Below are positions 43,919-62,019 of a DNA stretch of 64,000 nucleotides, one piece after another. Source of the DNA: Octopus vulgaris (lineage: Eukaryota). A model generated the notes under the pieces. The model was given only the letters and a program-made list of their open reading frames with translations. It did no database searches and had not been told where the DNA came from. Position 1 is the stretch's first letter. The number at the start of each line of letters is the position of its first letter. The DNA lies in NCBI GenBank assembly GCA_951406725.2, contig OX597826.1, positions 372,001-436,000 on the forward strand, read 5' to 3'. The position numbers and the translations under genes are program-made.

Positions 43919-43955
43919 ATGAACGGATTATATTATGGAATATGCCTTTTATTCG
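43919..43955 (+). CDS. Coding exon 1 (signal peptide [12 protein letters not shown])
   Basis: accaccATG start, hydrophobic codons, donor G|gtaagt (phase 1). Confidence 0.88.
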
Positions 43956-46900
43956 GTAAGTTGTATTAACATCTAGAACTTTTGGGAGAGAATGAGAAAC
44001 AGAGAGAGAGAGAGAGAGAGAGAGAGAGAGAGAGAGAGTATGACGATAGTGTTTTACATTTCTTTGTTTATAATTTTAAGTGCAAAGCCAGCAAATTTGA
44101 ATAAGACGGACTTAGTCGAATCGGTTTTTTTTTTCGATGACGTAAAAAGATACCTTGATGAATTCTTTGCCATGAAACCACCTCAATTCTGGAAAGAGAG
44201 TATTTTCAAGTTAAAGGAAAAATGGAGACCCATTGTGCAACAAAATAGTTCATATCTGGTTGATTAAAAATGTAATGACAAGTAATTTTTGACCTTTTTC
44301 TTTCCTCTAAAAATCTGCACGAACTTTCCGGTCAACCCAATATATATTTACTCGACAATAAACGTGGCGTGCAAAGAAGTTTATTCTATTCTATTCTATT
44401 TCGTTTTGTTTATTTACTTATTTATTTATTCATTTTGTAATATAACCGAACAATCACTTTATTCTTACTGAACCAGTCATTTCGAAAAGTTTTAATTATT
44501 TTTCTACTTTTTTGTTGTTGAAACTATTCTATTGCCATTTCCAACCGCGTTCGCGATTTTTCACGAGACATGTTTAAAAATTTGCTAAAAGAGATCAGTG
44601 AAAATACTTTTTTTAAACATGGCTTAAATTAATTCAGTGAAATGAGCTGAACAGTGCAGTTAGCGGACATTAGCAGCTAGAACATCAGAACTATAAGACT
44701 TTTGCCACCATATTTTTGAAAAGATATACTGCTTTATCCCAATTAGTTTTGAAATTAATAAAGAAGGATGGTTTCAAATTTTGGCATGAGCCCAGCAATT
44801 TTAAGGGAGTTGGACAAGTCAATTAAATCGAGCTTAATATTCGACTGGAACTGTTACTCAGTTTATCGACCCCAAATTACTGGCCTCGCACCGAAATTAG
44901 AAACCATTAAAAATTGGAGTTTAAGGCTGCGCACTGGCGGAATCAGTAACGAATTGAACAAAATACCAAGCGGCATTTCTTCCGGCTCTTTACGTTTTGC
45001 GTTCAAATTCCACCGAGGGTGATTTTTACCTTTCATCCTTTCCTGGTTTACTGACCACTGACGTCGATATAATCGACTTATCCCATCCACTGAAACTGCT
45101 GGTTTTGTGCCAAAATCTAAAACTGTTATTAATCTAGTGTGCTGAGTATAACAATTGACATGGAATTTCAGTGGAAGGGGTTAATTTTGATTTCTTTTAA
45201 TCAAGTCTATATCGTAGAAAAAGGAGTGGTGGCCTGGGGTGGGTTGGTATCAAAAAGGTTAACAAATTAAAGGGCTCAATATTGAAAACATTATAGTCGA
45301 AATATTCAGCAATGAAGGAATGAATGCTTAAAAAGGTATTAAAAAGGGTAAGTATTCAATACAGACAGCAGTGGATCCTCACCGTTTGACGACGAGGATT
45401 TGGTTGTTCTATCAACAGAATTGTTTGCCTCTTAATTAGAGAGTGAATTACTGCGTATTCCTCAGACACGAGCAACTTCCCGTAATTCTCCGCCAGAACC
45501 AGCTTCACACATCGAGCGTGACCAGGCCGTACATTTTGGATTACAGGAAACTTTTGAATTCATGCGTTTGTACATTTTCCGTCTACACAACTTTACTCAT
45601 GCGTTATGAACTGGAAGGAGGCTTCCCAAAAAGACATTTGCCCAGGATCTCAGGCAGAAGGATCAAGCGCGTGGCCTCATTCAAACGCGGTCTTCTTAAA
45701 CAATCGGCCATGCTTCGTCTACTTATACATATATATATTTCTTTATTGCCCACGAGGGGCTAAACATAAAGGGGACAAACAAGGACAAACAAACGGATTA
45801 AGTCGATTACCTCGACACCAATGTGTAACTGTAACTTAATTTATCGACCCCGAAAGGATGAAAGGCAAAGTCGACCTCGGCGGAATTTGATCTCAGAACG
45901 TAACGGCCACGAAATACCGCTAAACATTTCGCCCGACGCGCTAAAGTTTCTGCCAGCTCGCCGCCTTAACATATACATATACATGTTTGCCTGAGTATGC
46001 TTGGAAGTGTACTGTGTTTTTCAACACAGTAAGTCTTTAAAGGAGGGCTTTTCCTGGACGAAATACACAAGCCCCGCCCCCACACACATACACGTGATGT
46101 TTGGTTGCGCAATCAGCATGACGTTTCCTTAACGAGATTCATGATTGGCTAGTTGCAATTTGACGTGAACAGCATATTCGACGGTACGTGTCGGTCGATG
46201 TTTCATCCCACTTAAACTGTAATTATATAACTTTTAAACATGATATTAGTTATAAAGACATTTCTGTTGCATTTTCTAAATAAATACACCATAACCAAAC
46301 GTTCTCACTTGTTAAATAAACACTAATAAACTAAAAGCCGGAAGAATAAGGATGAGAAAGAGTTGGTAGAGAAATAATAAAAGAAAATGGAATAAGATAT
46401 ACAAGGAAAAAAAGAGTGACTAAAGAGGCGACACTTTATTCCACGTTGCTCCAGTTGTAGAAACGTCTCTGGTGCCAAACTGTATCGGCCTTGGCTTTCA
46501 CTTGGATAACATTAGTGGCGACTGGTATGCATGGACGGCTGCTGGCCTTCCATAAATAACCTTGCCTGGAATATATCTTATTCCATTTTCTTTCATCATT
46601 TTCCTACCAACTCTTTCTCATCCTCATTCTTCCGACTTTTAGTTTATTAGTATTTATTTAACAAGCATGGACGTTTGGTTATGGTGCAGAGGATTGCGGT
46701 CACCATCAGGAGAGACCATGTGTGAACCCGACGGTAGTGGGCATAGATATTTAGGGATTTTGGAGCAGGATGGCATTCTACACAAAGAAATGAAAGTCAA
46801 GGTCAGCGAGGAGTATCAAAAAAGGGTGAAGATGGTGCTGACATCCAACCTGAATGTCAAGAATTTGATTACTGCAATGAATATCTGGGCAGTTGCGACG

Positions 46901-61900: not shown

Positions 61901-62019
61901 ATATAATACTAACATTGTATTTCTCTATATTTTCAGACGTACCCAAACTGTATGCTCATAGCAGTGTCATCTCTGGTGCTTTCATTGCAGCAGTCGCCTT
62001 CAAGAAGTTACTTCTTTAA
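43919..62019 (+). CDS. Spliced 4-exon gene, join(43919..43955,49581..49686,53870..53991,61937..62019); 115-aa secreted, probably GPI-anchored six-cysteine protein with neuritin/RGM-N-like spacing
   Basis: Exons of 37+106+122+83 nt give 348 nt = 115 codons + TAA. All introns are GT..AG with matching phases (1,2,1). Translation: [115 protein letters not shown]. Start context is ACCACC-ATG; AATAAA lies 160 nt after the stop. Confidence 0.9.
44145..44342 (+). mobile_element. Mariner 3' fragment in intron 1 (paralog 15790..15997)
   Basis: [34 protein letters not shown] followed by the right TIR. Confidence 0.8.
46287..46686. repeat. Imperfect inverted repeat of about 115 bp around a deleted SINE fragment
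   Basis: 46287..46401 is the reverse complement of about 46573..46686. Confidence 0.85.
46690..47005 (+). mobile_element. Old Dong/R4-like fragment (paralog 16545..16745)
   Basis: [37 protein letters not shown] is homologous to the post-RT region of the Dong ORFs. Confidence 0.7.
47050..47970 (-). mobile_element. Decayed CR1-like RT fragment in intron 1 (paralog 16790..17605 with an internal deletion)
   Basis: [30 protein letters not shown] in the paralog. Confidence 0.8.
48010..48700 (+). mobile_element. Penelope-like 3' remnant with GIY-YIG endonuclease (paralog 17650..18320)
   Basis: [39 protein letters not shown] matches the pattern of PLE endonucleases. Confidence 0.65.
49069..49405 (+). 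mobile_element. tRNA-derived SINE family C (other copies 20467..20663, 50198..50435; related head at 36051..36420)
   Basis: A-box TGGCTCAGAG, B-box GTTCGAATCC, then a GTTCTTGAGCAAGACACTT..CACTCAGCTG core. Confidence 0.75.
49581..49686 (+). CDS. Coding exon 2 ([17 protein letters not shown]...DKATMC)
   Basis: Acceptor tttgtttcag|, donor AA|gtaaga; open frame; ends the signal peptide at AMA and carries 3 mature Cys. Confidence 0.9.
50684..50915 (+). mobile_element. tRNA-derived SINE family B (other copies at about 27400..27810 -, 44920..45120 +, 45737..45966 -)
   Basis: GGCGGCGAGCTRGCAGAA head, GTTCAAATTCC B-box-like motif in other copies, central GCCTTTCATCCTTTCGGGGTCGATAAA domain. Confidence 0.8.
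51880..53515 (-). mobile_element. Internally deleted Tx1/L1-like element in intron 2
   Basis: ORF1-like [21 protein letters not shown] and [16 protein letters not shown] knuckle, similar in layout to ORF1 at 38.0-39.4 kb. Confidence 0.65.
53870..53991 (+). CDS. Coding exon 3 (KVASDMMNC...KQAGCPGSS)
   Basis: Pyrimidine tract followed by ttatag| acceptor, donor A|gtaagt; 3 Cys; phase matches both neighbouring exons. Confidence 0.9.
55473..55650 (+). mobile_element. Helitron Pif1-helicase C-terminal fragment
   Basis: [33 protein letters not shown]...TKNIVY; followed by a roughly 33-bp degenerate tandem repeat to 55855. Confidence 0.85.
56259..61800 (+). mobile_element. Near full-length R4/Dong-type RLE LINE (family 2) in intron 3, with (TAA)n on both sides
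   Basis: N-terminal [11 protein letters not shown] region (58141 onward), RT ([26 protein letters not shown]), CRFC..H..C knuckle, RHD, NKPDIVV RLE; frameshifts near 58857 and 60075, in-frame stop at 59661. Whether 56259..57900 is its 5' UTR is inferred. Confidence 0.85.
56434..57333 (+). repeat. Tandem duplication of about 450 bp
   Basis: 56434..56878 is repeated at 56886..57333. Confidence 0.9.
61937..62019 (+). CDS. Terminal coding exon 4 ([27 protein letters not shown]), GPI-signal-like
   Basis: Acceptor tttctctatattttcag|, hydrophobic tail, TAA, then AT-rich 3' UTR with AATAAA. Confidence 0.88.

What the first reader, a model, noticed from the sequence alone, without database searches (positions are those of the whole stretch)
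43919..62019. Hidden intact gene for a small, probably GPI-anchored six-cysteine protein with neuritin/RGM-N-like spacing
Seen: four exons of 37-122 nt spread over 18 kb of repeats join with canonical splice sites and matching phases into a 115-aa ORF that the ORF track does not call. It has a 19-aa signal peptide (..CAMA|D), Cys at 21, 29, 47, 56, 64 and 84, small residues GSSN just after the last Cys, and a hydrophobic tail. Known: vertebrate neuritin/CPG15 is a small GPI-anchored protein with six Cys and a central C-x8-C-x7-C, and the RGM N-terminal helical domain shares that core. Inference: this is a divergent member of that fold, a candidate cephalopod cell-surface ligand or recognition molecule. 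The segment [15 protein letters not shown] also resembles the neuritin helix after Cys5. Homology is judged from remembered motifs, not from a search.
Basis: partly seen in the sequence, partly recalled or inferred. Interest (0 to 1): 0.85.

Follow-up and report, generated by a model that had tools for sequence, protein, structure and literature searches.

The report
Fast-diversifying octopus neuritin-like surface proteins
This is an intact four-exon octopus gene, one of six intact relatives, for a small six-cysteine protein predicted to be membrane-anchored and to fold like the N-terminal domain of repulsive guidance molecules, and the young copies differ far more in their protein-coding middle than in their introns, which likely marks a cell-surface recognition protein under selection to vary.

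Summary
The gene is real in sequence: four GT-AG exons (37/106/122/83 nt, phases 1,2,1) give 115 aa with six mature cysteines. It is one copy (G2) of an array: five intact young copies, three broken ones and one old paralog. Relatives are already annotated as uncharacterized in four octopod species; the family reaches mussels and oysters. Contigs of RNA-guessed runs show two junctions for sister copies, not for G2.

Homology to the RGM N-terminal domain is supported: profile E 1.7e-4, rank 1-2 of 48,161 chains (Z 8.0, 7.0). Neuritin is the best Pfam hit of the octopus proteins but stays under the cut-off. It is not an RGM: no vWF part, no BMP-binding loop motif, and a true RGM lies elsewhere.

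Best reading: a GPI-anchored recognition protein under diversifying selection; partner and tissue unknown.

The parts
43919..43955 (+). Exon 1 coding part of copy G2 (signal peptide codons 1-12, phase 1 donor)
   Evidence: 0/37 differences among five intact young copies
49581..49686 (+). Exon 2: end of signal peptide, Cys1-Cys3, predicted helix 1 and start of helix 2; phase 2 intron one codon after Cys3
   Evidence: 11-29 of 106 nt differ from the other intact copies
53870..53991 (+). Exon 3: Cys4-Cys6, predicted helices 2-3, small residues before the tail
   Evidence: contig cover starts at 53870 and a loose end at 53991 reads into exon 4 (sister-copy letters); 9-26 of 122 nt differ from other copies
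61937..62019 (+). Exon 4 coding part: spacer and hydrophobic tail (likely GPI signal), stop codon
   Evidence: 0-1 of 83 nt differ from the other intact copies
62180..62185 (+). Candidate polyadenylation signal
1761..1843 (+). Exon 4 of the upstream intact paralog G1 (its exons 1-3 lie before the window)
   Evidence: G1 equals P0005 letter for letter
14664..24882 (+). Relic copy: exon 1 (15589-15625) and intron pieces kept, exons 2, 3 and 4 missing
57991..61612 (+). Broken non-LTR retrotransposon-like frames inside intron 3
   Evidence: identified by eye from the translation, not by a family search

Best explanation
The four exons encode a 115-aa precursor that is likely cut to a roughly 70-aa, disulfide-stapled domain predicted to be a three-helix bundle of the RGM-N/neuritin type and likely held on the cell surface by a GPI anchor, where it would bind a protein partner from outside; the young octopus copies keep near-identical signal and tail exons while their mature domains differ at 12-33 of 64 residues, likely because selection favours new binding specificities. 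Shown: gene structure, the array, exon-versus-intron divergence, mosaic exons, sequence and fold similarity to RGM-N. Inferred: cleavage, GPI anchor, disulfides, a trans partner. The mechanism I commit to is a variable recognition surface in an arms race or self/non-self setting (host-microbe, cell-cell or gamete recognition), renewed by tandem duplication, gene conversion and loss, while the old paralog G6 keeps the ancestral, possibly neuritin-like, job.
For: Architecture (signal, six Cys with C-x8-C-x7-C core, small residues, hydrophobic tail) kept from octopods to bivalves. RGM-N match by profile and by structure. 42 of 69 mature positions vary among five copies against 4 of 46 in signal and tail. 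Mature exons exceed flanking introns in 8 of 10 pairs at p<0.01; for G2, nonsynonymous divergence 0.12-0.27 against whole-intron 0.04-0.10 in 4 of 4 pairs, while synonymous divergence matches introns in 3 of 4. Pairwise dN/dS above 1 in 9 of 10 pairs; one-ratio omega 2.0, p 0.038 against 1. G4's exon-3 3' half is nearest G1 (6 differences against 13-20) though the rest is nearest G3. G6 differs from its O. bimaculoides counterpart at only 5 of 65 residues.
Against: Site test M2a vs M1a not significant (p 0.062; own code, 5 sequences, 68 codons). G3-G7 shows no exon excess and G4-G7 a non-significant one; G1-G4 dN/dS is 0.73; G1-G2 synonymous divergence is also raised, so conversion with older copies explains part. 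Intron rates come from blastn chains with simple repeats masked and lean low. The tail has only about 12 strongly hydrophobic residues followed by two lysines; no GPI predictor was run. G2-specific letters were not seen in 4 of 4 runs laid. No partner, tissue or function is known.
Confidence: 0.58

Rival explanations
1. It is the mollusc counterpart of neuritin and works as a conserved growth or synapse-maturation ligand in the nervous system; the extra copies add dosage or a neuronal identity code.
For: Same size and layout as neuritin (recalled); NRN1 is the best Pfam family for P0001, P0002, P0004, P0008; nearest named ESM Atlas cluster is Neuritin at 0.85, a lead only; no other NRN1-like locus found in this genome; neuritin is GPI-anchored and sheddable (PMC6502786, passages read).
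Against: NRN1 matches only 3 of 16 mature domains at E<=0.1, against 15 of 16 for RGM_N; no single domain reaches the cut-off; the profile search of 1.84 billion representatives returned no vertebrate neuritin among its 13 hits; rapid amino-acid change is not expected of a ligand with a conserved receptor. One search also missed this family itself, so that blank is weak.
Confidence: 0.2
2. It is a stand-alone RGM-N domain that binds BMP/GDF ligands as a co-receptor or decoy.
For: RGM-N is the best structural and profile match; RGM-N is the BMP/GDF5-binding domain (PMC7354924, passages read); the genome has 13 TGF-beta family matches.
Against: The helix2-helix3 linker that RGMs use (RGD/RGN loop, Leu103, His106 in RGMB) aligns to a linker two residues shorter without the Arg, Leu or His. 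The octopus RGM on C2 also departs from this motif, which weakens the argument. BMPs are conserved, so they would not drive diversification.
Confidence: 0.08
3. The protein is mainly secreted or shed (skin mucus, saliva, haemolymph) and diversifies against foreign targets, as venom and antimicrobial peptides do.
For: Constant signal and tail with a hypervariable Cys-stapled middle is the pattern of venom and defence peptide families (recalled); summed contig depth in the thousands in 4 of 4 runs (a poor measure of expression).
Against: A hydrophobic tail after small residues is kept in all full-length single-domain homologs aligned; no similarity to a toxin family in Pfam or PDB searches.
Confidence: 0.08
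4. The young copies are redundant and drift; conversion homogenises introns and end exons and mimics selection, and G2 may be silent.
For: Three of nine loci are broken; exons 1 and 4 with their flanks are almost identical between copies whose middle introns differ by up to 9%; M2a test p 0.062; G2 transcripts not seen.
Against: No stop or frameshift and all six Cys kept in five copies despite up to 53 of 207 changed bases; synonymous sites track introns while nonsynonymous sites do not in 3 of 4 G2 pairs.
Confidence: 0.1

Closest known systems
RGM N-terminal domain (Pfam PF06535; RGMA/B/C, PDB 4uhy, 6z3m, 4ui1)
   Same: Three-helix bundle with three disulfides in RGMB (PMC7354924); C-x8-C-x7-C core aligned; profile E 1.7e-4; Z 8.0, rmsd 2.9 A over 67 residues.
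   Different: Stand-alone domain, no vWF-D region or GDPH site, shorter helix2-3 linker without the RGD/Leu/His contacts, intron after Cys3 (the octopus RGM-N is one exon).
Neuritin / CPG15 (Pfam PF15056)
   Same: Small precursor with signal, one six-Cys domain and GPI-type tail (neuritin layout recalled; GPI anchor read in PMC6502786); best Pfam hit of octopus members.
   Different: Below the Pfam cut-off (at most 21.4 against 27 bits for single-domain members); multi-copy and fast-changing, whereas neuritin is recalled as highly conserved.
Uncharacterized mollusc proteins (O. sinensis LOC115218432/LOC115218434, O. bimaculoides LOC106875478, Argonauta GAB1601526.1, Saccostrea and Mytilus LOC models)
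   Same: Same family: same Cys spacing and layout; two unnamed mollusc clusters of 66 and 51 members in the ESM Atlas.
   Different: No name, fold or function assigned; Mytilus members carry two or three tandem domains.
Conotoxin-type and immune gene arrays (mode of evolution only; recalled)
   Same: Conserved signal exon, hypervariable mature exons, birth and death, conversion.
   Different: No sequence or fold relation found; GPI-type tail.

Membership tests
Neuritin (PF15056) | Score over Pfam gathering cut-off (27 bits) | tested here: not met
   19.2, 17.5, 16.4, 21.4 bits for close relatives; G2's separate exons no hit; only the two-domain Mytilus P0017 passes (32.4). The joined G2 protein was not scanned.
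Neuritin (PF15056) | Signal peptide + single six-Cys domain + GPI-type tail in a small precursor | tested here: met
   (hydropathy, Cys positions); the anchor itself is inferred
Neuritin (PF15056) | Orthology by tree, synteny or shared intron positions | not testable with these tools
   No vertebrate neuritin sequence or gene was returned by any search; a phase-2 intron after Cys3 in vertebrate NRN1 is recalled, unverified
Neuritin (PF15056) | Neural, activity-regulated expression and neurite-promoting activity | not testable with these tools
   Run tissues are coded
RGM family | RGM-N three-helix fold with six Cys | tested here: met
   predicted model, Z 8.0 is modest for a helical bundle; disulfide pairing not inspected
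RGM family | vWF-D-like region with GDPH autocleavage site and RGM C-terminal domain | tested here: not met
   115-aa ORF ends in exon 4; a separate true RGM lies at G000:C2
RGM family | RGD/RGN loop with Leu and His contacting BMP | tested here: not met
   alignment against residues named in PMC7354924
GPI-anchored proteins | Omega site, spacer, hydrophobic tail without cytoplasmic domain | tested here: inconclusive
   Small residues 86-89 and tail hydropathy 2.25; short core with two Lys; no predictor available

The most novel reading that the evidence does not exclude
Neuritin-type proteins are an ancient bilaterian family of stand-alone RGM-N domains, and Octopus has turned one branch into a variable cell-surface code: tandem copies with constant signal and anchor exons whose binding exons are reshuffled by gene conversion and driven apart by selection, serving neuronal, immune or gamete self/non-self recognition.
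Probability: 0.2. Interest if true: 0.85.

Novelty: new variant of a known kind. Interest (0 to 1): 0.58.

Why it matters
It gives a fold and likely ancestry to an unnamed mollusc-wide family, links neuritin and RGM-N through invertebrate intermediates (one Mytilus protein passes both Pfam cut-offs), and identifies a small, easily expressed octopus surface-protein array with signs of positive selection and a conserved sister gene as built-in control. Finding its tissue and partner would test directly whether cephalopods use a diversified GPI-anchored recognition code.

Tried and rejected
Pfam on G2's single exons: nothing useful. P0001 alone against PDB sequences: no meaningful hit. Full-length model: pLDDT 60, the signal helix packed as a fourth helix and generic bundles led the wide search, RGMB only rank 45; replaced by a mature-domain model. 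Foldseek never reached E<=0.001. PF15056 search of this genome: 0 matches, and it missed this family too. Complex prediction of the mature domain (P0001) with octopus BMP2/4 dimer: no answer, score 0.01, alignment unused; no evidence either way. Profile-profile against octopus RGM-N: probability 10%, E 0.003. Tree of 26 domains: mostly unsupported; only a cephalopod/bivalve split at 84/99. Two of the 13 representative hits (P0011 bacterial adhesin-like, P0014 tetraspanin) were dropped as false. No run on record as RNA was listed as a holder; RNA is a guess; the 3' third of exon 3 was uncovered in 3 of 4 runs, which is no evidence of silence. ESM structure search of P0017 uninformative. Literature: neuritin+octopus 0 papers; neuritin+mollusc 2 unrelated listings (31); five gene identifiers 0 (47); neuritin+RGM+helical bundle+structure 0 (61); nothing on this family (listings only). 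PMC9712504: 2 readable supplements without the identifiers; its data archive and main supplement could not be read and may hold cell-type expression. Earlier scan findings: none. Searches with divergent homologs found no further loci.

Full report
Observation. Signal cleavage and GPI anchoring rest on hydropathy alone.

It is one copy of an array. The window is G000:C13:372001-436000. Searches and 340 kb of fetched flanks show on C13: G1 (intact), an exon-1-only relic inside the window, G2 (the finding), G3 (intact, inverted), G4 (intact), G5 (exon 3 missing) and an old paralog G6; on C23: G7 (intact) and another exon-1 relic. The five intact young copies share exon sizes 37/106/122/83; G6 has 37/109/137/86 in the same phases. 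G1 and G4 equal database proteins named Octopus vulgaris hypothetical proteins letter for letter. O. sinensis, O. bimaculoides and Argonauta relatives are annotated as uncharacterized. G2's own product was not returned by three searches, so this copy may be unannotated.

Expression. Twenty of 24 listed runs, from 7 studies, hold exon 4 and its UTR, but none is on record as RNA. Laid on exon 3, contigs of 4 of 4 runs start at the acceptor (53870) with no cover of the upstream intron; loose ends read into exon 2 (X1, X8) and exon 4 (X8). The letters fit G3/G4-type copies, and three G2-specific bases are replaced in every run. So junctions 2-3 and 3-4 are shown for the family, not for G2; no DNA control run was laid; junction 1-2 rests on database models.

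Family and fold. A profile search of 1.84 billion representatives gave 13 hits, 11 true-looking (octopods, an unnamed Logan protein, Mytilus, Saccostrea, two without a name seen) and 2 false; one search added four oyster proteins. Five Cys are invariant across 16 mature domains. Their profile finds RGMA-N first in the PDB (E 1.7e-4) and RGMB-N next. Pfam RGM_N matches 15 of 16 domains and NRN1 3 of 16 at E<=0.1; for octopus proteins NRN1 is the better hit but under its cut-off; two-domain Mytilus P0017 passes both cut-offs. The ESM Atlas lists two unnamed mollusc clusters and then Neuritin at 0.85, a lead only. The mature-domain model of the close relative P0001 has three helices (pLDDT 80); RGM-N chains take Foldseek ranks 1-9 (TM 0.55-0.65, E 0.29-2.0) and ranks 1-2 of 48,161 chains in the wide search (Z 8.0, rmsd 2.9 A, 67 residues; Z 7.0; next 6.6). 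Each signal is modest for a small helical bundle; their agreement with the Cys register makes homology likely. G2 itself was not folded.

Not an RGM, not shown to be neuritin. There is no vWF region; the genome's true RGM is on C2, with its N-domain in one exon. The BMP-contacting RGD/RGN loop, Leu103 and His106 (PMC7354924, passages) have no counterpart in a linker two residues shorter, though octopus RGM departs from the motif too. The layout is that of neuritin (recalled; GPI anchoring and shedding read in PMC6502786, passages), but orthology could not be tested.

Evolution, the new part. Among five intact copies 42 of 69 mature positions vary against 4 of 46 in signal and tail; changes fall evenly on codon positions (25:26:23). 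Mature exons differ by 9-26% against 2-11% in adjacent introns, significantly in 8 of 10 pairs; G3-G7 and G4-G7 are the exceptions. For G2, nonsynonymous divergence exceeds whole-intron divergence in 4 of 4 pairs and synonymous divergence matches it in 3 of 4. Pairwise dN/dS is above 1 in 9 of 10 pairs (0.73-4.3). My own codon models with a tree per segment give omega 2.0 (p 0.038 against 1) but M2a vs M1a only p 0.062. G4 is a mosaic, its exon-3 end nearest G1, and end exons are more alike than middle introns: conversion is at work and may inflate part of the contrast. G6 differs from its O. bimaculoides counterpart at 5 of 65 residues, the young copies from each other at 12-33 of 64.

How it likely works. 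Shown: gene, array, divergence pattern, RGM-N similarity. Inferred: the signal is removed, the tail exchanged for a GPI anchor, and a three-disulfide helical bundle is displayed and possibly shed, binding a partner in trans. The excess of amino-acid change suggests that partner varies, as in host-microbe, gamete or cell-identity recognition (0.58). Rivals: conserved neuritin-like neural ligand (0.2), neutral drift with conversion (0.1), BMP binder (0.08), secreted defence or venom-like peptide (0.08).

Novelty. The searches listed under Tried and rejected found no paper on this family; the library lacks most subscription journals, and unreadable supplements of PMC9712504 may hold expression data. 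The fold is known and relatives sit unnamed in databases, so this is a new variant of a known kind: a mollusc family of stand-alone RGM-N/neuritin-type proteins with a young, diversifying octopus array. Interest 0.58.

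Noticed in passing
window 14664-24882: Relic copy with intact exon 1 but exons 2, 3 and 4 cleanly missing; a second exon-1-only relic lies at G000:C23:44757944.
   Followed up: partly
G000:C13:509834-519696: Copy G5 lacks exon 3 (no N in the region); joining exon 2 to exon 4 shifts the frame.
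   Followed up: partly
G000:C13:447492-463403: Copy G3 is inverted; its database model (CAI9731512.1) has a different N-terminus although a normal exon 1 is present.
   Followed up: partly
G000:C23:44817819-44830577: Intact copy G7 on another chromosome; its database model (CAI9739700.1) stops at 75 aa.
   Followed up: partly
G000:C13:554666-595946: Old paralog G6, same intron phases, 33-kb first intron, well conserved with O. bimaculoides LOC106875478.
   Followed up: yes
P0001, P0002: O. sinensis 'isoforms' X1 and X2 differ only in exon 3; they may be two tandem genes merged in annotation, or true alternative exons.
   Followed up: no
P0013, P0017, P0019, P0027-P0030: Mytilus members carry two or three tandem domains (the two in P0017 identical); Saccostrea cucullata has at least six genes, so bivalves expanded the family too.
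   Followed up: partly
window 9737-12715 (+): 993-codon stop-free frame that looks by eye like a non-LTR retrotransposon ORF; other broken LINE-like frames at 1-1110, 22555-24081, 38722-41319.
   Followed up: no
L079 (G000:C2:46683999-46684205): The genome's true RGM gene; its N-domain lacks the vertebrate RGD loop sequence.
   Followed up: partly
accession series CAI9731510-13: Numbers 10, 12 and 13 are G1, G3 and G4; number 11 would fall where G2 lies but no call returned it.
   Followed up: no
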